A stretch of 36,534 bases of DNA, taken from IMG/VR virus record IMGVR_UViG_3300032163_000058, positions 1 to 36,534 of that record. One strand, given 5' to 3'. Below the pieces are notes generated by a model that was given only the letters and a program-made list of their open reading frames with translations, searched no databases and was not told the DNA's origin. This document shows positions 11,337 to 36,534 of the stretch, piece after piece (the stretch's first letter is position 1; each line of letters begins with the position of its first letter). A program made the position numbers and the translations under genes. The stretch is from a virus. Taxonomy: Duplodnaviria > Caudoviricetes.

Positions 11337-12251
11337 TTAAGTTGCTACTGGGTCAAGCACGCCTTGCCGGTCGCCGATGTCCACTGAGTAATTCTGAATC
11401 ACGCTCATTGTTGAACCAACGTTGATATTTGTGGTCGCATTGCCTGAAAGAAGCGTGCCGACACCGTTATAGGCCACGATGCCGGTCGATGTTGCGGCGA
11501 TTTTGATGCACTTATCGGCGCTGTCGGGCGTTTGTGAAATCAGATTACGAAGGATGCTGGCTTTCGTGATTGCTCCTGCGGCCAGAATTGCGCCCGTCAC
11601 CCAGTTGCCACATAGCACGTTATCGCGGATGATACAGCGATCCGGCGTGCCCGGCAGAGAAATCGCCGCTGTATTGTTTGTGCCGTAAGCATAAAACTCG
11701 CAATTCTCAACAATCATCCGATCGCTTCCGCCCGCTGCCGCTCCCAAAATCCAGATGAGCGCATTGAGGATTACGCTCGTATCGACGAATTCGCAGTTGC
11801 GGATTGTGAAGCCATCCGAGTTCACGTCGATAGCGGCGGCGATATCGACCTTGTTCGCGACGAAACGCAGATTATCAAACGTGATATTCGCGGCGTCAAT
11901 GTCGATATCGGCCAGCGCATCTGTGGATAGCGTGATCGTTGGCCGCTGGTCGCCTATACCCAGACCTTTAATCGTGATGCCGATAGTATCCGCATCCCAG
12001 CCTGCAGCGGCTATGATGCTTTCAGCATGCCCGGCTGCAACGAATACCACATCACCCGAGGCCAATAGGCCGCTATCCAATGCCGCCGCGACTGTAGACC
12101 AGGGCATATCTGGATTTGAACCATAGCCCGCAGTTGTTCCTTTTCCGCTTGCGTTGCTATCCACATACCAGATATTGCCGAGTGTGAGAGCAGTATTATC
12201 TACATGGAAGACGCCGCCCGGTATATGCCTGACAAAAAGTGGTGATCCCAT
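11337..12251 (-). CDS. Right-handed beta-helix (pectin lyase-like) head fibre/decoration protein, paralog B
   Basis: IWYVDS..PWSTVAAALD..GDVVFVAAGHAE, repeated TIRNCEF/IVENCEF rungs. Confidence 0.7.
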   Translation of the reverse strand: MGSPLFVRHIPGGVFHVDNTALTLGNIWYVDSNASGKGTTAGYGSNPDMPWSTVAAALDSGLLASGDVVFVAAGHAESIIAAAGWDADTIGITIKGLGIGDQRPTITLSTDALADIDIDAANITFDNLRFVANKVDIAAAIDVNSDGFTIRNCEFVDTSVILNALIWILGAAAGGSDRMIVENCEFYAYGTNNTAAISLPGTPDRCIIRDNVLCGNWVTGAILAAGAITKASILRNLISQTPDSADKCIKIAATSTGIVAYNGVGTLLSGNATTNINVGSTMSVIQNYSVDIGDRQGVLDPVAT

Positions 12252-12269
12252 TGTTTGTTCCTTCTCTCG

Positions 12270-13187
12270 CTAGGTTGCCGCCGGGTCGAGTACGCCCTGC
12301 CGGTCGCCTTCGTCTACAGCGTAATTTTGAATGAGAGTCATTGCCGCGCCGGCTGTAATCTGGTCGGTTGTATTATCCGTCTCGCGTCCGCCGACGCCAT
12401 TGTAGGCCACGACGCCGGTCGAGGCCGCTGCGATATTGATACAGACATCGTCGCCTGCATCCAGATTGCTGATGACGTTCCTGAGAATACTAGCATTCGT
12501 GATTGCGCCCGCCGCGAGAATTGCAGCTGTGCCCCAATCACCAATGAAGATATTGTCACGGACAATACAGCGATCCTCTGCTGAGGGCATGCTGATTGCC
12601 GCTGTGTCAGCCGTGCCGAAAGCATAGAATTCACAGTTTTCCACAACCATTCGGTCAGATACATTTGCGCCCCCACCCAGTATCCAGATTGCGGCATTCA
12701 AAACTGCGCTCGTATCAATGAATTCACAATTGCGACAGGTAAACCCATCCGAATTTACATCGATAGCGGCGGCGATGTCCAAGAAATTGGCGATGAAACG
12801 AAGATTCTCGAACGTGATATTGGCGGCATCGATATCGATATCGGCTAGATTGCTTGTATCAATGGTGATCGTCGGACGAAGGTCGCTAACGCCCAGACCC
12901 TTGATGGTGATACCAATCGTATCTGCATCCCAGCCTGCAGCGGCGCTAATAGTTTCGGCATGGCCTGCGCCCACTATGATGATATCGCCTGCGGCTAGAT
13001 TGCCGCTATCGAGCGCCGCCGCGACCGTGGACCAGGGCGCATCGGGCGTAAAACCAAATAGTGCTGTCGCGCCTTTTCTTGCTGACGTGCTATCCACGTA
13101 CCAGATATTGCCAACAGTCAAGGCATTCGGATCGACGTAATAGACGCCACCGGGTTGAGTTCTGTTGAAGAGAGGAGATCGTGCCAT
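12270..13187 (-). CDS. Right-handed beta-helix head fibre/decoration protein, paralog A
   Basis: Colinear and highly similar to 11337-12251 along its whole length. Confidence 0.7.
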   Translation of the reverse strand: MARSPLFNRTQPGGVYYVDPNALTVGNIWYVDSTSARKGATALFGFTPDAPWSTVAAALDSGNLAAGDIIIVGAGHAETISAAAGWDADTIGITIKGLGVSDLRPTITIDTSNLADIDIDAANITFENLRFIANFLDIAAAIDVNSDGFTCRNCEFIDTSAVLNAAIWILGGGANVSDRMVVENCEFYAFGTADTAAISMPSAEDRCIVRDNIFIGDWGTAAILAAGAITNASILRNVISNLDAGDDVCINIAAASTGVVAYNGVGGRETDNTTDQITAGAAMTLIQNYAVDEGDRQGVLDPAAT

Positions 13188-22477: not shown

Positions 22478-23353
22478 CTATCCCGGCGGCGCAATCTCGC
22501 TCTTGATCTTGGCGATCATCTGCCGCGCGTTGGTGATATCAGTCAAAATTTGCTGGCTGAGAGCGTTGACGGCGTTGATTGCATTGGTCATGGAATTGAA
22601 ATCAACGGCAATCTGTTCGAGCGAGGATGCAACGGCGTCCACCGTGCCAGGCTGAGGGGCGGGGGCGGGGGTGGGGGCAGGTTCGTCCACGTAGTCGAGC
22701 GAACACGGGCCGAAGAAAAACGCGACGCCGGTTGGGTCGTTCGGCCAGTTCTGTTGGGTCTTCTGGATAATGGTCATCTCGCCCGAGGGTGGAACGAACG
22801 CCGAAATCTCGAATAGATTCCACACCCGGCTGTTTCCGGGCCAGTCCCGCCGGTCTTTCATCTCGGCATAAGTTCGATGAACAGGAACGGGCGATGAGTA
22901 ACCATTGCATACGAGTTCGACCTGAGCGTGGCAGTGGTCATCCTCCAAATGCCCGGCAGGTCCGCGCGGGACATCCTGAGTATCAGGCAGGATGTAGCAC
23001 GAGAGTCGGACCTTGCGGCCAGGGGTGAGGCCTAAGACGCGGTTGACGTGCCGGGTACAGGATGGTCCGTGAAACGATTTATAGACCTGCTTCAGGACGG
23101 GCCCGAGCAGGAGCGCGCGTGATTGTCCCGCCTGTTCGTCGGGCGGGAGTTGGGTCGCGAGTTTGAATACGATTTCTGGTTGACGCTCGACACGGGCGAG
23201 CATAATGCCCTGACCGTTGCCATAGGCTTTTTCGGCCCAGAACATCGTTGAGTTATTGGGCAGATAGACGACCTCCCAATCGAGCGGAGTCTGATTGCCA
23301 TCCGGGCCGGTCATCCAGTTCGCTTGCCTATCGCCGTTGGAAAGTAGGTTCAT
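22478..23353 (-). CDS. Hypothetical protein: CBM-like N-terminal domain, Pro linker, coiled coil
   Basis: MNLLSNGD start, PAPTPAPAPQP linker, C-terminal heptads. Confidence 0.55.
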   Translation of the reverse strand: MNLLSNGDRQANWMTGPDGNQTPLDWEVVYLPNNSTMFWAEKAYGNGQGIMLARVERQPEIVFKLATQLPPDEQAGQSRALLLGPVLKQVYKSFHGPSCTRHVNRVLGLTPGRKVRLSCYILPDTQDVPRGPAGHLEDDHCHAQVELVCNGYSSPVPVHRTYAEMKDRRDWPGNSRVWNLFEISAFVPPSGEMTIIQKTQQNWPNDPTGVAFFFGPCSLDYVDEPAPTPAPAPQPGTVDAVASSLEQIAVDFNSMTNAINAVNALSQQILTDITNARQMIAKIKSEIAPPG

Positions 23354-23997
23354 TTAATTCGCCTTTCTTCTGAGATCAGCAATTCAATCGGGTAACTGGC
23401 CGAGTCGGGCAGCGGGCGGAAGTGCGTCCGGCCATCCGGCCATGGCTCGGTTAGCAAACTGCTGTCGGGCGCGCGGAGCAAACTGCCGCTTCCATCACGC
23501 GCGTATCGGGCATCGGAAAAAAACAGCGCGCCGCGCGTCGGGTCGGGAATGCGCTGGCTCAACACGCAGCGGGCAATCGAGCGGGCAATCCAGTAAGCAT
23601 CTCGTCCGGCGTCGGGCAGACCGCCGAACCATCGGCTATTGGCTTCGGGATTGGCAGCCACTGCGGCATTGTTCGGAGCGCCGGGGGCCGCGCCGGTCAT
23701 TCCCTGAAATTGTCCCTTCGCCATGATCGCGGCGCGGAGATTTCCGAGCGCATAATCGAAGCCGGGATGCAGGCCCAGCGTCCGGTTGAGCGCGACCCAG
23801 GCGATGCCGACTGAATCCACCTGTCCATCACCGGTCAGGATGCGCCCACCCGCCTCGGAGAGGATCATGCGCGCCAGCAGGTCATCCTCGACGACTGAAT
23901 GCCAGTCAAGCGGAAAAGCCAAGACGGGCGCGGGTGGGGGTGGAGGTGAAACGAATGGGGAACAGACGATGAGTAGAGCGACAGCGATTTCAAGCAC
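23350..23997 (-). CDS. SleB/CwlJ-like cell wall hydrolase (Hydrolase_2), endolysin candidate
   Basis: LLARMILSEAGG, IAWVALNR, GQFQ, DPTRGALFF; hydrophobic N-terminus. Confidence 0.8.
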   Translation of the reverse strand: MLEIAVALLIVCSPFVSPPPPPAPVLAFPLDWHSVVEDDLLARMILSEAGGRILTGDGQVDSVGIAWVALNRTLGLHPGFDYALGNLRAAIMAKGQFQGMTGAAPGAPNNAAVAANPEANSRWFGGLPDAGRDAYWIARSIARCVLSQRIPDPTRGALFFSDARYARDGSGSLLRAPDSSLLTEPWPDGRTHFRPLPDSASYPIELLISEERRIK

Positions 23998-24287
23998 GCC
24001 CTGATGATACGCCCATTCGATTTTCTGCGCAATATGGGCTGCTTTTCGAGGCCACAGGAAGGGCTGCGCCGAAGCACTACTATTTGTATTTCAACGATTT
24101 TTTGACCGCCAATGACTGCGAAAACGTTGGTTTCCTGCGGAAAACAGCACATTTTTGACCTCGAGGCTGAAACAACGCGCAAATCGGGCTATGCTGTGAT
24201 ACCTATTTCGCAGTAGCGTGTGCCACAGCCACGCCCAACGCGATGGCGGCGGCGCGTAGAATCTAATCGACATGGTACCAACGTACT

Positions 24288-24322
24288 ATTGAGTCAATTG
24301 GGCGGATGTCGTAATATATAAT
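24288..24322 (+). promoter_or_regulatory. Putative early promoter with palindrome over the -35
   Basis: TTGAGT-17-TAATAT (overlapping TATAAT); ATTGA-G-TCAAT at 24288-24298; divergence point of the two arms. Confidence 0.5.
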
Positions 24323-24390
24323 TGTGGCCAGATGGTCACTCGCAGCAATGAGCGATGTTTCCTGAAGGTCACAGAACCGGAGTGTTACGA

Positions 24391-24427
24391 CCGGATGAGC
24401 GATTGAACAGCCGAGAGAAATGAGGAA
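24391..24427 (+). repeat. Intergenic repeat copy 1 (3' half only)
   Basis: GAACAGCCGAGAGAAATGAGGAA; GCCGAGAGAAATGAGGAA is identical in copy 6. Confidence 0.65.
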
Positions 24428-24431
24428 TGAA

Positions 24432-24644
24432 ATGAACGAGAAAGAAATCCACGAAAAATTGGTAGCCCTCAATGTAATTTTGTCATCGGAGCGCGCTGAA
24501 ATTGCAATGCGCGAAAATGCCAAAAAACGAATCACTAAAAAATTCGCGCGGTTGTTGGCTGTCCATGCCGATAACAGCCGGATGGAGGGCGTGCTATACG
24601 CAATGTTATGTGCGGCGCGAGGGGAAAAAAATTACGCGGAATAG
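24432..24644 (+). CDS. Cassette ORF 1, helical hypothetical protein
   Basis: GAGG SD, 70 aa, between repeats. Confidence 0.7.
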   Translation: MNEKEIHEKLVALNVILSSERAEIAMRENAKKRITKKFARLLAVHADNSRMEGVLYAMLCAARGEKNYAE

Positions 24645-24669
24645 AACACACATGCCGAACCAACCCACC

Positions 24670-24701
24670 AGCGCGCCCGGCGGCGCGGAACAGCCGGGAG
24701 A
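24670..24701 (+). repeat. Intergenic hairpin repeat copy 2
   Basis: AGCGCGCCCGGCGGCGCGGAACAGCCGGGAGA. Confidence 0.9.
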
Positions 24702-24707
24702 GGAAAC

Positions 24708-24860
24708 ATGAAAGCGACGCGAAAATCCTACGCGAAAATGACACAGATGAAACGTACGCGCAAACCGCGCAAATGCTCCATCTGTGAACGCATCATTCAG
24801 ATAGGCCAGAAATATGGTCTTACCTCGCGCGGGACGATCTGGTGCGAGGACTGCAAATAG
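24708..24860 (+). CDS. Cassette ORF 2, 50-aa basic zinc-ribbon protein (absent from ORF track)
   Basis: MKATRKSYAKMTQMKRTRKPRKCSICERIIQIGQKYGLTSRGTIWCEDCK; GGGAGAGG SD; stop abuts next repeat. Confidence 0.7.
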   Translation: MKATRKSYAKMTQMKRTRKPRKCSICERIIQIGQKYGLTSRGTIWCEDCK

Positions 24861-24892
24861 CGCACCCGGCGGCGCAGAACAGCCGGGAGAAA
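24859..24892 (+). repeat. Intergenic hairpin repeat copy 3
   Basis: AGCGCACCCGGCGGCGCAGAACAGCCGGGAGAAA. Confidence 0.9.
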
Positions 24893-24901
24893 GAACATCC
24901 A

Positions 24902-25114
24902 ATGAAAAAGCAAATCCTAATTTTCCGCGATAAATGTGAAAGGCCGTACCATATTGAAATTCGCCGCGATGGAAAATTGTGCAGCAATCATTACAACATC
25001 GCCACTCATGCAGAGGCAGTAGAGATTGCACTGTCCGAGTACAAGAGCCGCGACATGTACGGGCAAGGCAGCGGTTGGGAATTATCGGACTATTCGGAAA
25101 CCACCATACTATAG
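24902..25114 (+). CDS. Cassette ORF 3, hypothetical protein
   Basis: MKKQILIFRDK.., 70 aa, fills the space between repeats. Confidence 0.7.
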   Translation: MKKQILIFRDKCERPYHIEIRRDGKLCSNHYNIATHAEAVEIALSEYKSRDMYGQGSGWELSDYSETTIL

Positions 25115-25132
25115 CCCGCTCTGGGCACAAAC

Positions 25133-25166
25133 AGCGCACCCGGCGGCGGGGAACAGCCGGGAGAAA
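25133..25166 (+). repeat. Intergenic hairpin repeat copy 4
   Basis: AGCGCACCCGGCGGCGGGGAACAGCCGGGAGAAA. Confidence 0.9.
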
Positions 25167-25177
25167 TGGAGACAGAC

Positions 25178-25378
25178 ATGACAACAGAACTGGTGCTCGA
25201 TGGGAATTTCCGGAACGACGAATCGGTGTGGGACGCGATTGAATGGGAGAGAGAGACTGTGACTGTGCCTGATGGCTACAGTGTGCAGCAGGCGGGTGAT
25301 GATGTGATGGTCATCCGGCTGGCGGATGAGTCAGTCTGCCACTGCGTCATAATTGATTCTGATTTTGTAATCGACTAG
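25178..25378 (+). CDS. Cassette ORF 4, acidic hypothetical protein
   Basis: GGAG SD; Asp/Glu-rich, 66 aa. Confidence 0.7.
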   Translation: MTTELVLDGNFRNDESVWDAIEWERETVTVPDGYSVQQAGDDVMVIRLADESVCHCVIIDSDFVID

Positions 25379-25386
25379 TGCGAGAC

Positions 25387-25421
25387 AGCGCGCCCCGGCG
25401 GCGCACAACAGCCGGGAGAAA
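25387..25421 (+). repeat. Intergenic hairpin repeat copy 5
   Basis: AGCGCGCCCCGGCGGCGCACAACAGCCGGGAGAAA. Confidence 0.9.
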
Positions 25422-25434
25422 TTGGAGAAATGAA

Positions 25435-25842
25435 ATGGAAAAACATCTAGGGCAGGAATGGCTCTCCGAATTCGCTCCAGTCAATGTCTGGAGTGGGGGA
25501 GCCTTCCAGAAAAGAGCATTGGATGGTTTTCCATTTTTGATTACAGAATTGTGGAGTGCGGTAGACGACGCAGCCGCACTCCACTTGATCCAGATAGCAG
25601 ATGATCTATCGGGATCAACAAACGTCTATCACTCGGTAGACGAAATTCGTTATGGGGAATATCCTCCCGGAGTTAGGATTATCAAGGAGGATGAGAGTGA
25701 CGAGTATCAACAACACTACTCCCGACTGACGCGCTGGGGTAGATTTTATGTGGGGGGAAGGTGGGCGAGAACCGTAACATGGCATAGACACGATGGCTCG
25801 GGCCGCGAGGCCGGGACTGTAGAATTTTGGGCTTCGTGGTAA
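25435..25842 (+). CDS. Cassette ORF 5, hypothetical protein
   Basis: GGAG SD; MEKHLGQEW.., 135 aa. Confidence 0.7.
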   Translation: MEKHLGQEWLSEFAPVNVWSGGAFQKRALDGFPFLITELWSAVDDAAALHLIQIADDLSGSTNVYHSVDEIRYGEYPPGVRIIKEDESDEYQQHYSRLTRWGRFYVGGRWARTVTWHRHDGSGREAGTVEFWASW

Positions 25843-25850
25843 TAAGGCAT

Positions 25851-25888
25851 ACGCACCCGGCGGCGCACAACGCCGAGAGAAATGAGGA
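25851..25888 (+). repeat. Intergenic hairpin repeat copy 6
   Basis: ACGCACCCGGCGGCGCACAACGCCGAGAGAAATGAGGA. Confidence 0.85.
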
Positions 25889-25893
25889 ACAAA

Positions 25894-26013
25894 ATGGAGG
25901 GCTGGAAATGGCAGGGCAGGAACGAGCACGAAGCGACAGAGGCGTACATCGAGGACGCGCGGGCGGAGACGGAATACAGCCACAGCACAGGAGCACACCA
26001 TGACCGACTATGA
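25894..26013 (+). CDS. Cassette ORF 6, 39-aa peptide (absent from ORF track)
   Basis: GAGG SD; MEGWKWQGRNEHEATEAYIEDARAETEYSHSTGAHHDRL. Confidence 0.5.
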   Translation: MEGWKWQGRNEHEATEAYIEDARAETEYSHSTGAHHDRL

Positions 26014-26368
26014 CGACGAAAGAGCGGACGAAGAGGATAGAAGAGTGGAAGCGGATGAACTCATGGAAGGAATGCCATACGCTTCGCGATCTACAGAACA
26101 AGAAAAATACTTGAAAGAATACGGCGAGGCTTTCAATGATGGCTATCAGGCCGGCCTGCGCGAGCGCGGGCAGCAAATCATCGTTGCCATCGCGGCTACC
26201 CTCAATTCCAACGTGACGCTGAACAGCGTCAGCGATGCCGCCGGCGTGCCCAATTCTCTGGCGCAGCAGGCGCGGCGGGATGCGATTGCATTGATTGAGG
26301 CGATTGCGCTGTTGAAAGGAGAACAATCATGCCAAATTCACTTCTCATCCCCATCATCGCCGATTTGA
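26000..26368 (+). CDS. Hypothetical protein with acidic N-terminus
   Basis: AGGAG SD; 122 aa. Confidence 0.65.
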   Translation: MTDYDDERADEEDRRVEADELMEGMPYASRSTEQEKYLKEYGEAFNDGYQAGLRERGQQIIVAIAATLNSNVTLNSVSDAAGVPNSLAQQARRDAIALIEAIALLKGEQSCQIHFSSPSSPI

Positions 26369-26532
26369 ATGAACTATACCGTGAGCGCAGCACAACCCAC
26401 GCGCTCGAACTGGCCGAATGCCGGGCGGCGCTGGCAGCGGCGGAAGTTCTGCTGGAAAGGAAAGACGAAAGAATCGAGCACCTAACCGACACGATTTTCA
26501 AGTTACTCGACCAAATCAACAACCCAACCTGA
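26329..26532 (+). CDS. Small coiled-coil protein
   Basis: AAGGAG SD; heptad pattern. Confidence 0.65.
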   Translation: MPNSLLIPIIADLNELYRERSTTHALELAECRAALAAAEVLLERKDERIEHLTDTIFKLLDQINNPT

Positions 26533-26553
26533 TTCACTCAAAGGACACCGGAC

Positions 26554-27084
26554 ATGAAACGTAGCGAAGCTTTCCCAACCAAATATCTGAGCAAGGACGA
26601 TGTTCACGCCCCAACGGTCGGGATCATCGAGCGCATCGTCAATGAAACTCTGGGCACGGGAGATGATCAAGAAATCAAGCCCATCTTGTATTTCTCGTCC
26701 GGCCTGCCCAAGCCGATGGTCATCAACACCACGAACTGGACGAACGTCGAGGCCATCTATGGAGATGAATCCGACAATTGGATCGGCAAGTCGATTGAGG
26801 TCTGGGTAGACCCATCGGTTGTCTACGGCGGTAAACGGATCGGCGGATTGCGATTGCGTGCACCCGCTGGACAGCCCCCGCCACCAGGGGCCACCATTGC
26901 TCATCCACCGCTGGCCTACAAGGATGCCCTGGCGATGTATTGCTCAAAGACCGGCTATGGCGAGCCTGAGTTCAAATCGGCGTTGAAAGGATACGCCGCC
27001 GGGCATGGCTATCAGGGCTATTCGGCCAGCCGGGACACGGAATTCGTGCACAGCCTGATTGACACTCAGGAAGTGCCGCTGTAA
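26554..27084 (+). CDS. Conserved phage protein, putative OB-fold ssDNA-binding protein
   Basis: FPTKYLSKDD..KPILYF..VINTTN..YGDESDNWIGKSI..GGLRL family signature; function is inferred. Confidence 0.55.
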   Translation: MKRSEAFPTKYLSKDDVHAPTVGIIERIVNETLGTGDDQEIKPILYFSSGLPKPMVINTTNWTNVEAIYGDESDNWIGKSIEVWVDPSVVYGGKRIGGLRLRAPAGQPPPPGATIAHPPLAYKDALAMYCSKTGYGEPEFKSALKGYAAGHGYQGYSASRDTEFVHSLIDTQEVPL

Positions 27085-27157
27085 AAATAGAATCTATCGC
27101 GCTCGTGTCGCTACTGGTAGGCTATATACAGAGGCCTTGACGGCGCGACGGATGCGA

Positions 27158-27242
27158 AATTGTGCGGCGTCCAATGTGGGCCGGCCTGAGTACAGGAGAC
27201 AGTGAGGATGCGGCCATTCGGAACTTCACCGTCCGCACAATT
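27158..27242 (+). ncRNA. Structured multi-stem RNA element
   Basis: Perfect closing stem AATTGTGCGG/CCGCACAATT with internal CCTG-AGTA-CAGG and GTGAG/CTTCAC arms. Confidence 0.45.
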
Positions 27243-27247
27243 CAAAT

Positions 27248-27317
27248 GGCTGTGACACATACGCTGGTGCTTTGCGGATGATAGCCCGCATTGGGAGTCC
27301 GATTCTCCCGACAGCCA
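27248..27317 (+). ncRNA. tRNA-like element (degenerate, GAT in anticodon-like loop)
   Basis: Acceptor GGCTGT/ACAGCC+A, T arm GGGAG-TCCGATT-CTCCC, TGCGG-ATGATAGC-CCGCA arm; weak D arm. Confidence 0.55.
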
Positions 27318-27334
27318 CACAAGGAGATTATCAT

Positions 27335-27442
27335 ATGCTCAAACAATTATTCTCGAAACTCCCGCCGGGCATCTGCTTCCGTTGCGTTCTGGCCTGGAGC
27401 GGATGGGCTAACCACTGTCGGCATTGCGCTTGTTGCAAGTAG
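27335..27442 (+). CDS. 35-aa Cys-rich peptide (absent from ORF track)
   Basis: AAGGAG SD; MLKQLFSKLPPGICFRCVLAWSGWANHCRHCACCK. Confidence 0.5.
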   Translation: MLKQLFSKLPPGICFRCVLAWSGWANHCRHCACCK

Positions 27443-27456
27443 AAAGGAAACGGAAA

Positions 27457-27621
27457 ATGAATTACCTCATCATTCTCTATAACGGTTCGCGCGAGATTGG
27501 CCGCTACAGATTTGCTGACCAACGCGAACAATACAACGGCTGCCTGGCCGTGCTCAAAGCGCATCCCGCCGCGACAGAGTGGGAATTCACGGATGAAAAC
27601 AAGAAAGGAGGGATAGCATGA
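27457..27621 (+). CDS. Hypothetical protein
   Basis: AAAGGA SD; ATGA-coupled to next gene. Confidence 0.6.
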   Translation: MNYLIILYNGSREIGRYRFADQREQYNGCLAVLKAHPAATEWEFTDENKKGGIA

Positions 27622-28241
27622 AACAATTCATTCAGAAATTAGAAACGATGAATGCTTGCTCGGATGCAGTCAATTGGATCATCTCCCTGCCCAGAAACAT
27701 CACGCCCCAACAGGCATGGGAACTTTGCGAGCGCGGAGACTGGATGCTGTGGTTGATTGGAAAAACTGACCGCAGCCAGTCATTCTCTGGGGCGCGCAAG
27801 CCGATTGTTCGCGTGGCACTAGAATGTGCGCGGCTGGCGTGGAAATGGATGCCGGAGGAGTCGCGTCAATGCGTTGAATTGTACGAGCGATGGGTGAATG
27901 GCGAGAATGTGGGCGTGGATGAATTGCGACAAGCGCAAGCCGCCGCCCACTACGCCGCCGCCGACGCCGCCTACGCCGCCGCCGACGCCGCCGACGCCGC
28001 CCACTACGCCGCCGCCGCCGCCCACTACGCCGCCGCCGACGCCGCCTACGCCGCCCACTACGCCGCCGCCGACGCCGCCGACGCCGCCCACTACGCCGCC
28101 GCCGACGCCGCCGCCGCCGCCGCCGACGCCGCCGCCGCCCACTACGCCGCCGACACCAGAATCAAAACTCTGAAAAAGTGCGCCGATATTGTGCGTAAGT
28201 ATTACCCGTTTATCCCGGAGATCCAAAATGTCATGGAATAG
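27618..28241 (+). CDS. Helical protein with Ala-rich (AAHY/AAAD/AAY) repeat tract
   Basis: ACSDAVNW..AWELCERGDWMLWL N-terminus and CADIVRKY C-terminus of a widespread phage family; AGGAGG SD. Confidence 0.75.
   Translation: MKQFIQKLETMNACSDAVNWIISLPRNITPQQAWELCERGDWMLWLIGKTDRSQSFSGARKPIVRVALECARLAWKWMPEESRQCVELYERWVNGENVGVDELRQAQAAAHYAAADAAYAAADAADAAHYAAAAAHYAAADAAYAAHYAAADAADAAHYAAADAAAAAADAAAAHYAADTRIKTLKKCADIVRKYYPFIPEIQNVME
27939..28152 (+). repeat. GCC-based low-complexity coding tandem repeat
   Basis: Built only from GCC, GAC, CAC and TAC codons. Confidence 0.9.
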
Positions 28242-28494
28242 CCTCCCTCAACTGGACGAAGCCTCGGCCTCCCCGAAACTTTGCCAGCCGCATCGGATCC
28301 GCATCGCCACAACGCTGGCCGAGGTCACCGGCGGTTCGCTTATCGTCGTGCTGTATCAGGCGGGCATGCCCATCGGCTACCTGTGGCCGTTCACCGGGAT
28401 GTTCGGCGTGTACGCCATGCTGCGCATCATCGGTTTTATCGCGCTCTGCCTGCGGGCAGATGAATGGGAGGCTATGCCTCCAGAAAGGAATTGA
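28228..28494 (+). CDS. Small membrane protein
   Basis: GGAG SD before ATG 28228; two hydrophobic segments. Confidence 0.55.
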   Translation: MSWNSLPQLDEASASPKLCQPHRIRIATTLAEVTGGSLIVVLYQAGMPIGYLWPFTGMFGVYAMLRIIGFIALCLRADEWEAMPPERN

Positions 28495-28495
28495 A

Positions 28496-28702
28496 ATGGT
28501 CAACATTGTTCTTCGCAATGGAAAAGTTTTGCAATACAACGAGGGAAACTCGATTGCAGTGGAAAACGGAACTATAGCCATCACCAAAGACAGAAAATAT
28601 CTGGTTGCCAGAATCCCGCTTGATATAGTTGAACGCGCCGAGTTCGAAAAGCCCTGCCGGATTTTGAAAGCTAAACCTGCGCCAAAAAAGGCAAATTATT
28701 AG
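28496..28702 (+). CDS. Hypothetical protein
   Basis: AAAGGA SD; MVNIVLRNGK.. Confidence 0.6.
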   Translation: MVNIVLRNGKVLQYNEGNSIAVENGTIAITKDRKYLVARIPLDIVERAEFEKPCRILKAKPAPKKANY

Positions 28703-28936
28703 ATGACCGACGATCCTCAGTTCGCGCTCTGGCTTCAGGCTGGCCCGGAACTCTGGCCCGAACTCATCAGCGCACGGCACGATAAACTGGCCGCTGATTT
28801 CAACGCCTACGTAGTTTCAGAAGCGACAATGGCGCGCTGCGCGTTCATTCAGTGGCACGTCAACAATACCTACGTGCGGGACGGGTTCGGATTGTTGAGA
28901 GCGAGGGATAATCACCATGAAAGGAAATTACAATGA
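28703..28936 (+). CDS. Hypothetical protein
   Basis: Abuts both neighbours. Confidence 0.55.
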   Translation: MTDDPQFALWLQAGPELWPELISARHDKLAADFNAYVVSEATMARCAFIQWHVNNTYVRDGFGLLRARDNHHERKLQ

Positions 28937-29790
28937 ACATTGAAATCAAGAATCGACTCTTCGGAGATGTAATAGCATCCATTGAATCCGAAACATTGAA
29001 AGAAGCGATTGTAAAATTGTTGAAACAGCGCGCGAACTTGCGGAGCGCGGACTTGCGGGACGCGGACTTGCAGCGCGCGAACTTGCAGGACGCGGACTTG
29101 CGGAGCGCGGACTTGCGGAGCGCGGACTTGCAGCGCGCGGACTTGCAGCGCGCGAACTTGCAGCGCGCGAACTTGCAGCGCGCGAACTTGCAGGACGCGG
29201 ACTTGCGGAGCGCGGACTTGCGGAGCGCGGACTTGCAGCGCGCGGACTTGCAGGACGCGGACTTGCAGGACGCGAACTTGCGGGACGCGGACTTGCGGAG
29301 CGCGGACTTGCAGCGCGCGGACTTGCAGCGCGCGGACTTGCAGCGCGCGGACTTGTGGGGCGCGGACTTGCGGAGCGCGGACTTGCGGAGCGCGGACTTG
29401 CAGAGCGCGGACTTGTGGGGCGCGAACTTGCGGGGCGCGAACTTGCGGGACGCGAAAAATTCTGAATTAGCATTTGCAATGACCAGTATTACTCCGGCGG
29501 GAATCCTCATCGTCTGGAAAAAATGTCGCGGCGATGTGATCGTGAAATTGCGGATCCCAGAGGAGGCGCGGCGCTCAAATGCTTCGGGCCGTAAATGCCG
29601 GTTTGAGTTTGCGGATGTGCTTGAAGTCATCGGCGGAGAAATTGGCCTCAGTCTGAAAGACGGCAAAACGGAATACCGGGCGGGCGTGCGCGTCACGTGC
29701 AATTCGTGGGACGAAAACCGCTGGAATGAGTGCAGCGGCGGGATTCATGCGTTCCTGACCCGCGAAGAGGCTGAGGCGTTTGCGCTGTAA
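28933..29790 (+). CDS. Pentapeptide-repeat protein with DUF5758-like C-terminal domain
   Basis: 28 A(D/N)Lxx units; VWKKC..IVKLRIPEEARRS..KCR..WDENRWNECSGGIHAFLTREEA. Confidence 0.9.
   Translation: MNIEIKNRLFGDVIASIESETLKEAIVKLLKQRANLRSADLRDADLQRANLQDADLRSADLRSADLQRADLQRANLQRANLQRANLQDADLRSADLRSADLQRADLQDADLQDANLRDADLRSADLQRADLQRADLQRADLWGADLRSADLRSADLQSADLWGANLRGANLRDAKNSELAFAMTSITPAGILIVWKKCRGDVIVKLRIPEEARRSNASGRKCRFEFADVLEVIGGEIGLSLKDGKTEYRAGVRVTCNSWDENRWNECSGGIHAFLTREEAEAFAL
29032..29451 (+). repeat. 15-bp coding tandem repeat (28 units)
   Basis: GCG(G/A)ACTTG-N6 period. Confidence 0.9.
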
Positions 29791-30680: not shown

Positions 30681-31562
30681 ATGGACAATGAACCCATCAC
30701 CCAAGAAGAAATCGAGGAAGCCAATCAACTCCTGAAAGGATTAGACCCGGATAGCGTTCCCATTCAAAGCAAAATAAAAGGCTTTACCCCGCTACCCGAT
30801 TCAATAGCCGAGACTCACGGCCTAATACGGGCAGCCGTGTTTGGGAAGGTATGGCGATATTGCCAAATGCGAGACGGTGTATGCCGGGCATCGCTCGAAA
30901 CAATTGCCGGTGGACTTGGAATAGACCGGAGCACCGTTTCCAGACACGTTGAAGTCCTGTGTAAAGATCATTACTTAAAAGACCTGACCCCACTTCTGAA
31001 AAACAAACCTCACGTATACGCCGATACTGGAAAGATGAAATTCACCATTGGTCTAACTGTTGCAGAGTGCAACGTGGGGGGCGAAACTGTTGCAGAGCGC
31101 AACGTGACTGTTGCAGAGCGCAACGTGACTGTTGCAGAGAGTCGCATGAGTAAAGAGTCTAAGAGAGATTCTAAGAAAGAAGAACTTTACCCGCTGGCGC
31201 GGGCACTCTCGGAAGTTTGCCATATTGACTTGAAAGCAAATCGGGGACGCCTATTCAGAGAAGCGAAGCAACTCAGCACGGCAACCCCACTCCCAACCCC
31301 GGAACTCATCCTCGCTCAATACAACGGCAGCCCTTCTGCGTTCTGGAAATCAACGGACTGGCGAGGGAAGAAGGGCCAACTTCCGACCCCTGCCGCAATC
31401 CGTGAGACGTGGGGGCAGTGGCAGGTCAGTTCCGCCCCGGCCTACGCTTCAACCACCGAAGAAATTCAGGCTGAATTTGCCCGCATGAATCCGGGCAAAG
31501 AAAATCCGTCTGTCACTTGGGCGCGTATCGTCGCAAAAAAGGCAGCCGAGGCAGCGAAATGA
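30681..31562 (+). CDS. Replication initiator (N-terminal winged HTH, lambda O-like layout)
   Basis: GFTPLPD..CRASLETIAGGLGIDRSTVSRHVEVL HTH; internal iterons; followed by DnaC-like gene. Confidence 0.8.
   Translation: MDNEPITQEEIEEANQLLKGLDPDSVPIQSKIKGFTPLPDSIAETHGLIRAAVFGKVWRYCQMRDGVCRASLETIAGGLGIDRSTVSRHVEVLCKDHYLKDLTPLLKNKPHVYADTGKMKFTIGLTVAECNVGGETVAERNVTVAERNVTVAESRMSKESKRDSKKEELYPLARALSEVCHIDLKANRGRLFREAKQLSTATPLPTPELILAQYNGSPSAFWKSTDWRGKKGQLPTPAAIRETWGQWQVSSAPAYASTTEEIQAEFARMNPGKENPSVTWARIVAKKAAEAAK
31056..31140 (+). repeat. Iterons / probable replication origin
   Basis: ACTGTTGCAGAG(C/T)GCAACGTG three times plus a partial fourth; each holds the inverted repeat GTTGC-N5-GCAAC; A-rich tract follows. 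Confidence 0.8.
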
Positions 31563-35821: not shown

Positions 35822-36231
35822 AATGCCCTTCTGTTGCCACGCTCAAAACGGAAGAAAGACATCCCATGAACAATATTACAGAACGTCGAGCGAGGTTTGT
35901 TTATGATTCTGCGCGGCTTGCGGCGCTTTTTGCCCGGGCCCCGATTATTCCTATTCAATGGGACGAGCGCGAAGAACCTTTCAAAGCGCAGTTCCGAGCC
36001 GTCATTGAGCGGCAATGCTCAGACCAGCGGTCACGTTCCCCCGAGGAATTGCATGGCAGTTGGATGCAGGCTTATTTTGCAATGGGCTGGGTCTATGGCG
36101 TGGAATATAACCGCGAGAAAAAAATACATCCTGATCTTGTTCCTTTTGCCGATCTCGGAAAACTGGAACAGGATAAAGACGCCGTGTTTATTGCATTGTG
36201 TGAAATCGCCCGTCTATGGATTGCAGTCTAA
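35818..36231 (+). CDS. RyR-domain protein
   Basis: PEELHGSWM..GWVYG..KIHPDLVPFADL..QDKD RyR repeat signature; alternative start 35866. Confidence 0.8.
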   Translation: MKCPSVATLKTEERHPMNNITERRARFVYDSARLAALFARAPIIPIQWDEREEPFKAQFRAVIERQCSDQRSRSPEELHGSWMQAYFAMGWVYGVEYNREKKIHPDLVPFADLGKLEQDKDAVFIALCEIARLWIAV

Positions 36232-36296
36232 TACAAGATGACAACCAGCCGATGGCATGCGCGCCGCATCACAACCGGCGCTGTTGCAGGTGTGAA

Positions 36297-36534
36297 ATGA
36301 AAGTTCCATCCGTCGCGACCCTCAAAACGTGGGACGTTCTCCATGCCGAACGTGGCACCCGTGCCGCTGCCGCCAGCGAATACCACGTTCGGCGTAGCCG
36401 CAAAGCCGCGCTCGGAATATGCGCCACAGTAGGCTGCAAACGAAAGCGAGATGGACGTGTTTACTGTACGCCCTGTCTCAATCGCCTCAGCCGGGAGCGC
36501 GAGCGCTCTCTAGCGCGCGGCGGGCAGACGCCGA
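36297..36534 (+). CDS. Cys-motif hypothetical protein, 3'-truncated
   Basis: MKVPSVATLKT..GICATVGC..YCTPC, open to window edge. Confidence 0.55.
   Translation, partial: MKVPSVATLKTWDVLHAERGTRAAAASEYHVRRSRKAALGICATVGCKRKRDGRVYCTPCLNRLSRERERSLARGGQTP

What the first reader, a model, noticed from the sequence alone, without database searches (positions are those of the whole stretch)
24391..26013. Array of six small early genes, each headed by the same ~33-bp hairpin repeat (candidate gene-cassette system)
Seen: consensus AGCGCRCCCGGCGGCG-N2/3-AACAGCCGGGAGAAA at 24670, 24859, 25133, 25387 and 25851, plus a 3'-half copy near 24405. Each copy is strictly intergenic, sits 0-25 nt after a stop codon and runs into the SD/ATG of the next gene. 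Exactly one unrelated ORF (70, 50, 70, 66, 135, 39 aa) follows each copy. The repeat folds as CCCGGC/GCCGGG with a purine-rich loop of about 11 nt, and the array is the first thing downstream of the putative early promoter. Known: first-expressed small phage genes are often host-takeover or anti-defence factors, and intergenic repeats mediate gene shuffling in some phages. Inference: a repeat-delimited exchangeable cassette array, integron-like in layout but lacking attC cores or an integrase in this window. The repeat could serve as recombination site, RNA processing site, or both.
Basis: partly seen in the sequence, partly recalled or inferred. Interest (0 to 1): 0.85.

Follow-up and report, generated by a model that had tools for sequence, protein, structure and literature searches.

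The report
Repeat-headed swappable phage gene array
A sediment phage heads six small genes with the same 33-base hairpin-shaped repeat, and related sequences from other sediments carry that repeat, and two of the genes, beside different neighbours, so the repeat is likely a shared start-of-gene signal that also serves as a gene-swapping point, not an integron site.

Summary
Five full copies and one 3' half of a 32-35 nt repeat fill the gaps before six small ORFs at 24405-26013 of a 36.5-kb tailed-phage contig; the 20-nt core occurs 4 times against 0 in 100 shuffles. Contigs from two other sediment runs support the cassette idea. Gene 1, which has only the half copy here, sits behind a full copy in one run. 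Gene 4 has another upstream neighbour. The repeat heads two genes absent from the window, and one of these also follows the leader directly. The repeat is not attC, not a host REP element, and has no sigma-70 promoter or terminator tract. No integrase was found, but the contig is rated 46% complete. The 6-bp stem is not unusually stable and shows no covariation. Best reading (0.5): a start-associated hairpin-plus-ribosome-binding module that doubles as a short homology block for gene exchange, as PeSLs do in T4-type phages. Dedicated site-specific recombination is not excluded (about 0.12). No excised circle or clean single-gene deletion was seen, and expression was not tested. New variant of a known kind; interest 0.5.

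The parts
24289..24317 (+). Candidate sigma-70-type promoter, TTGAGT-17-TAATAT (8 of 12)
   Evidence: Relaxed scan, (one of three + strand candidates); below threshold. Changes in run X2 at 24320 and 24322 spare it but break the overlapping TATAAT at 24317. Untested.
24405..24427 (+). 3' half copy of the repeat plus ribosome-binding tract; 24410-24427 is identical over 18 nt to 25872-25889 of copy 5
   Evidence: In run X3 the same gene carries the full repeat.
24432..24644 (+). Gene 1, 70 aa, unknown function
   Evidence: no credible family. The one listed change in X3 (24452) is synonymous.
24670..24701 (+). Repeat copy 1
24708..24860 (+). Gene 2, 50 aa, basic, two CxxC motifs (likely zinc ribbon)
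   Evidence: Sequence; only a sub-threshold NCBIfam match, E 0.045
24859..24892 (+). Repeat copy 2 (overlaps the stop codon of gene 2)
24902..25114 (+). Gene 3, 70 aa, unknown function
   Evidence: best Atlas feature score 0.86, a lead only
25133..25166 (+). Repeat copy 3
25178..25378 (+). Gene 4, 66 aa, acidic, unknown function; found behind a different upstream sequence in run X2
25387..25421 (+). Repeat copy 4 (one extra C)
25435..25842 (+). Gene 5, 135 aa, member of an unnamed family with a WHRHDGxG motif
   Evidence: 10 full-length homologs kept of 15 non-self hits, 4 more; model pLDDT 89.8
25851..25882 (+). Repeat copy 5 (variant: 10-nt loop, one stem mismatch)
25894..26013 (+). Gene 6, 39 aa; overlaps the next gene (26000-26368) by 14 nt
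26554..27084 (+). 176-aa gene, candidate recombination or single-strand DNA protein (by context of one homolog only)
   Evidence: Homolog in L122 lies between a YqaJ exonuclease and an SSB gene; same PHROG families; structure model too poor to search

Best explanation
The repeat sits between each stop codon and the next ribosome-binding site of six small phage genes and changes neighbours among related sequences; it is likely a start-associated mRNA module (a short hairpin abutting the Shine-Dalgarno tract) whose copies likely also act as short homology blocks through which ordinary homologous recombination would add, drop and reorder genes. Shown: the repeat, its fixed sense orientation and position, and the changed neighbours. 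Inferred: (1) the array is transcribed from the leader at about 24290-24430 as one early message; (2) the CCCGGC/GCCGGG stem, whose 3' arm runs into the GGGAG/GGAG tract, tunes or couples translation starts; (3) a crossover between two copies, by RecA or a phage annealing protein, moves a gene together with its ribosome-binding site, so recombinants stay expressible; (4) the half copy at position 1 is a scar of such an exchange, which fits the 18-nt identity between the first and last gene heads.
For: Geometry is constant: 5' stem arm 32-41 nt before the ATG, purine tract directly behind the stem., long pieces: X3 holds gene 1 (140 nt, 6 differences) behind a full repeat; X2 holds gene 4 (237 nt, 0 differences) behind a degenerate repeat and 245 unrelated letters; X2 holds the leader (368 nt, 7 differences) running into a gene start absent from the window, and the same gene start also follows a copy-5-type repeat. 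Short pieces: a copy-1-type repeat has other upstream sequence in X1 and X3, and another downstream gene start in X3. Divergence points are not fixed: 24405 and 25155 (inside the repeat), 25884 (behind it), 24382 (a GGAG in the leader, no repeat). The copy-5 variant is kept whole while both neighbours change. No U tract follows any stem. Precedent: PeSL-mediated excision and replacement in T4-type phages (PMC2839356).
Against: No covariation in 5 copies, and 1 of 30 cells is unpaired. The stem is no more stable than shuffles and loses to another fold in copy 1, so an RNA role is unproven. Perfect identity between copies in the window is only 9-18 nt, below the 23-27 bp (Red-beta) and 31-34 bp (RecA) minima quoted in PMC3945230, although a copy matching copy 1 without a difference over 30 nt, with a different upstream neighbour, exists in X1. 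No joint that skips one gene between two repeats was listed (table 5). Five of the 7 loose ends at repeats belong to 30-33 nt pieces that match the repeat alone, so they end there by construction and may come from other phages. Mosaic breaks also occur away from repeats (24382, 25999, 26030-26301, 27097-27246, and a 35-nt piece inside gene 2). X2 keeps the order gene 2 - repeat - gene 3 - repeat. No recombinase gene is identified.
Confidence: 0.5

Rival explanations
1. The repeat is a DNA operator: an imperfect palindrome (10-bp arms, 8 of 10 matching, around a 7-bp spacer) bound by a dimeric phage regulator before each gene, like the inverted repeats of ESAS and of Microbacterium cluster EG phages; shuffling is a by-product.
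For: Arm spacing is 11 nt in 4 of 5 window copies. Sequence is conserved without covariation. Analogues lie 14-22 bp before start codons (PMC7302621), and regulator binding is proposed for ESAS (PMC11373665).
Against: No sigma-70 hexamers were called in the array for an operator to cover. All copies face the same way and the loop is asymmetric and conserved. A degenerate copy in X2 has lost 3 nt between the arms. No regulator was identified.
Confidence: 0.2
2. The repeat is an RNA processing, 5'-stabilising or antitermination signal that cuts or protects one long early message gene by gene (T7 RNase III sites and lambda boxB are the recalled models; no call).
For: Sense-only orientation, one per gene boundary, and stem probability 0.8-0.99 in copies 2-4.
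Against: A 6-bp stem is shorter than the roughly two-turn helices recalled for RNase III. No Rfam match at E up to 5. No covariation.
Confidence: 0.13
3. The repeat is the site of a dedicated site-specific cassette system unrelated to attC, with the half copy in the leader acting as the attI-like entry site and the recombinase in the missing part of the genome or in the host.
For: Gene 1 has a half site at the promoter-proximal position here and a full site in X3. Imperfect inverted arms around a 7-bp spacer resemble tyrosine recombinase core sites (recalled). The contig is linear and rated 46% complete.
Against: The spacer differs among copies. The X2 leader joins its first gene with no half site. 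Divergence points differ (24405, 25155, 25884). The copy-5 variant travels whole. No Phage_integrase, Resolvase or Recombinase match at E up to 1.
Confidence: 0.12
4. The repeats are neutral relics: a good ribosome-binding region copied during tandem duplication and gene replacement, with no function of the hairpin.
For: Folding z-scores are not significant; mismatched and shortened copies are tolerated.
Against: The six genes are unrelated while 24 repeat columns are invariant in 5 copies, and the repeat persists before further genes in other runs.
Confidence: 0.05

Closest known systems
PeSL (promoter-early stem-loop) cassettes of T4-type phages (PMC2839356, parts 1-3 of 6 of the text read; PMC4122927, abstract and outline only)
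   Same: Repeated intergenic modules from stop codon to Shine-Dalgarno site before ORFans; neighbours are gained, lost and replaced at the repeats.
   Different: PeSLs span about 100 bp and carry a sigma-70 promoter, an AT-rich tract and a terminator-active stem-loop; mini-circles were shown. This repeat is 32-35 nt, GC-rich, without promoter hexamers or U tract; no circle was seen.
SAS/ESAS of cluster K mycobacteriophages and start-associated repeats of Microbacterium clusters EC, EF, EG, EI (PMC3203893, PMC7302621, PMC11373665; passages read)
   Same: Short conserved repeats, some with inverted arms, at a fixed distance before start codons of unrelated small genes; function unresolved.
   Different: No sequence likeness to the consensus sequences printed in the passages read (the EI motif is only in a supplementary image, not seen). 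ESAS hold SigA-like promoters. Here all copies head consecutive genes of one array and neighbours change among relatives.
Integron attC cassette arrays, including those reported in phages (PMC9892861, search listing only)
   Same: One gene per repeat, with a half site at the promoter-proximal end.
   Different: No RYYYAAC or GTTRRRY (core patterns recalled) in 24301-26100, no long imperfect single-strand hairpin, and no integron integrase found.

Membership tests
Integron attC cassette array | R'' (RYYYAAC) and R' (GTTRRRY) cores at the two ends of each site (pattern recalled) | tested here: not met
   0 matches of either pattern in 24301-26100; the two are reverse complements, so both orientations are covered.
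Integron attC cassette array | Long imperfect single-strand DNA hairpin over a site of about 57 nt or more (size recalled) | tested here: not met
   Gaps are 44-63 nt and fold into short stems of at most about 11 pairs, -7 to -12 kcal/mol, on both strands.
Integron attC cassette array | Integron integrase nearby (absent in CALINs) | tested here: inconclusive
   No PF00589 match at E up to 1, but the record is linear and rated 46% complete.
PeSL | Sigma-70 -35/-10 promoter inside each module | tested here: not met
   No + strand promoter-like site between 23900 and 26111; the repeat has no such hexamers.
PeSL | Stem-loop with terminator or attenuator activity | tested here: inconclusive
   Stem present, but no U tract follows and no copy was called terminator-like; activity untested.
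PeSL | Gene gain, loss or replacement at the modules among close relatives | tested here: met
   Genes 1 and 4 have other upstream neighbours, and the repeat heads two further gene starts; from contig pieces, not whole genomes.
PeSL | Excised mini-circles | not testable with these tools
   Only contigs were laid; no go-back or gene-skipping joint between repeats was listed.
SAS/ESAS-type start-associated repeats | Conserved repeat at a fixed short distance before start codons of unrelated genes, conserved beyond the ribosome-binding site | tested here: met
SAS/ESAS-type start-associated repeats | The published consensus sequences, and a SigA-like promoter within ESAS | tested here: not met
   Compared by eye with the consensus sequences in passages of PMC3203893 and PMC7302621; no promoter.
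Host REP-type element | Many copies in a bacterial genome, independent of gene starts | tested here: not met
   20 loci in the GTDB genome collection, each with one match; no second copy at E below 0.9 in the flanks fetched. The host may not be in the collection.
Known structured RNA (Rfam 15) | Match to a covariance model | tested here: not met
   0 matches at E up to 5 in 23900-27600.

The most novel reading that the evidence does not exclude
A compact, non-attC site-specific cassette system in a phage. The 33-nt repeat is a recombination site (10-bp imperfect arms, 7-bp spacer) that also supplies the ribosome-binding site, the leader holds an attI-like half site where new cassettes enter next to the early promoter, and a recombinase outside the assembled part cycles accessory genes through the first position.
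Probability: 0.12. Interest if true: 0.85.

Novelty: new variant of a known kind. Interest (0 to 1): 0.5.

Why it matters
It is a minimal version of repeat-guided gene shuffling: a module about a third the length of a PeSL, without promoter or terminator, at which gene neighbours are seen to change in natural sediment populations. It gives a small, testable system for the open question of what start-associated repeats in phages do and how orphan genes move while staying expressed. It also marks at least eight small genes (six here, two gene starts in relatives) as candidate accessory genes; gene 5 founds an unnamed family with a confident model.

Tried and rejected
Relatives carrying the repeat: exact pattern in viral contigs, 0 hits. 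Relaxed pattern, 10 single hits, none array-like. Metagenome scan, stopped after 7 of 64 parts: 121 loci, of which only L088 (the window's own sequence) has the array; L051/L052 are an unrelated GC-rich tandem repeat. Phage and plasmid records: 2 and 3 records with chance-level hits. Terminase relatives (51 loci, best 60%) carry no convincing copy, and L123 is not syntenic. The closest relative, L205/G001, does not reach the array. The capsid search found nothing. L204 is a spurious match. No RNA holder was listed, which says nothing about expression. Gene functions: no credible Pfam, PHROG, NCBIfam or PADLOC match for genes 1-6. The word-index search found no homolog of gene 4, but it also missed the gene 5 family, so that blank is weak; genes 1, 2 and 6 were not searched for remote homologs. 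The gene 5 model has no Foldseek match at E up to 0.001 and a best Z of 4.6, which does not show a new fold. The 176-aa protein model was too poor to search, and it had no PDB sequence match. Rejected readings: attC, intrinsic terminator, sigma-70 promoter cassette, host REP element, known Rfam RNA. Literature: searches found no description of this repeat; the library lacks most subscription papers and no supplements were opened.

Full report
Setting. The window is a whole 36,534-base virus record, classed as linear and 46% complete. Terminase, portal, capsid and head-tail genes lie on the - strand below 24000. A replication-initiator-like gene, a DnaC-like loader and many small genes lie on the + strand above 24400. 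The array is the first thing on the + arm. All three runs that hold the stretch are sediment metagenomes; X1 may be the source. The host is unknown.

Observation. The repeat is real: four exact cores against none in 100 shuffles. A profile finds five full copies and the half copy, and nothing else in the window. ORF sizes and spacing are as reported. The hairpin is real but modest. CCCGGC/GCCGGG with an 11-nt loop is the predicted fold in copies 2-4 (pairing probability 0.80-0.99). It is shortened by a mismatch in copy 5 and displaced by another stem in copy 1. No copy folds clearly better than shuffles (z 0.09 to -1.96) and no pair covaries. The last copy heads a gene that overlaps the next one, so it opens a longer run.

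What it is not. There are no attC core patterns and no long single-strand hairpin, and no Rfam family. No promoter or terminator was called on any copy, and no U tract follows the stems. It is not a multi-copy element in GTDB genomes: 20 single hits. No tyrosine or serine recombinase was found, with the caveat of incompleteness.

Evidence for exchange. laid contigs of three runs on 23300-27300 and showed 15 of 24 loose ends; nine of these lie between 24382 and 25999. The strongest are on long pieces. In X3, 140 nt of gene 1 and its head (6 differences) are preceded by the 5' half of the repeat behind a TAG, so gene 1 sits behind a full copy there and behind a half copy here. In X2, 237 nt over gene 4 (0 differences) are preceded by a shortened repeat and 245 letters not in the stretch, while another X2 contig keeps gene 3 before copy 3. 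Also in X2, 368 nt of the leader (7 differences) turn at the GGAG at 24382 into a start codon and a gene not in the window, and the same gene start follows a copy-5-type repeat on another contig. Shorter pieces show a copy-1-type repeat with other upstream sequence in X1 and X3, and in X3 with a second new gene start behind it. The same 12-nt spacer precedes different repeat variants in X2 and X3. The first and last gene heads of the window share 18 identical nt.

Limits of that evidence. These are short assembly pieces at depth 2-8, not genomes. Five of the seven loose ends at repeats are on pieces that match only the repeat. Breaks also occur away from repeats (24382, 25999, within 26030-26301, 27097-27246, and a diverged 35-nt piece in gene 2). 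No joint skips a single gene between two copies. X2 and X3 are of the same year and habitat and may not be independent. Nine loose ends were not shown, so the list of neighbours is incomplete. No relative covering the array was found in viral contigs, phage records or plasmids.

Mechanism. The divergence points fall inside the loop (24405), at the 3' arm (25155), behind the repeat (25884) and at a bare Shine-Dalgarno motif (24382). The copy-5 variant is kept whole between new neighbours on both sides. This fits exchange by short homology better than a fixed crossover. Identity between window copies is only 9-18 nt unbroken, below the minima quoted in PMC3945230 (passages read), so such events should be rare or need a relaxed phage annealing protein. 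The 176-aa gene at 26554 is a candidate only by context: one homolog lies between a YqaJ exonuclease and an SSB. Why the repeat is kept is less certain. Its fixed orientation and the overlap of the 3' arm with the purine tract point to an mRNA role at translation starts (0.5). An operator (0.2), a processing or antitermination signal (0.13), a dedicated recombination site (0.12) and a neutral relic (0.05) remain.

The genes. None of genes 1-6 matches a named family. Gene 5 is clearly a real protein: 10 full-length homologs were kept of 15 non-self hits (5 dropped as short matches in longer proteins), 4 more came, and the model has pLDDT 89.8. Gene 2 has two CxxC motifs. Anti-defence or host-takeover roles are untested.

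Comparison. It works like PeSL cassettes (PMC2839356) in marking where orphan genes are swapped, but fails the promoter criterion and is about a third the length. In anatomy it resembles SAS/ESAS and the start-associated repeats of Microbacterium phages (PMC3203893, PMC7302621, PMC11373665), with a different sequence. It is not an attC array. Earlier notes of this scan list 79 findings under similar words (unchecked leads), so the theme is common. This sequence had no look-alike there and none of the nine paper searches that ran returned it. One motif in a supplementary image of PMC7302621 was not seen.

Verdict. Observation confirmed; interpretation partly supported; new variant of a known kind; interest 0.5.

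Noticed in passing
window 24000-24400 and 36216-36534; L205:4346-5428: In relative L205 (71-81% DNA identity in the main shared blocks) the homolog of the window's last gene runs directly into the homolog of the hydrolase gene at 23350-23997, so both arms are co-directional there; in the window they diverge. This suggests a large inversion between relatives, or an assembly join; no repeat explaining it was found.
   Followed up: partly
window 27248-27316: tRNA-like cloverleaf with an 8-nt anticodon loop, not called by ARAGORN or Rfam; fold z -1.29; partly covered without differences in X2 and X3.
   Followed up: partly
window 27097-27246: Intergenic stretch with hairpins behind a 10/12 promoter-like site at 27059; replaced by 34 other letters in X2.
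   Followed up: no
window 25435-25842: Unnamed protein family with invariant W-H-x-H, Y and R residues; confident model without a structural match.
   Followed up: partly
window 24349-24423: ATGAGCGAT occurs twice in the leader; the first opens a 24-codon frame that ends inside the half copy (read).
   Followed up: no
window 11337-13187: Two tandem paralogous genes of 304 and 305 aa, about 72% alike in DNA blocks, behind the capsid gene.
   Followed up: no
window 27618-29790: A 207-aa protein with an alanine-rich repeat and a pentapeptide-repeat protein with DUF5758.
   Followed up: no
window 31056-31148: Four 21-nt direct repeats inside the replication-initiator-like gene, likely origin iterons.
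   Followed up: no
window 35818 and 36297: Two genes begin with nearly the same 11 residues.
   Followed up: no
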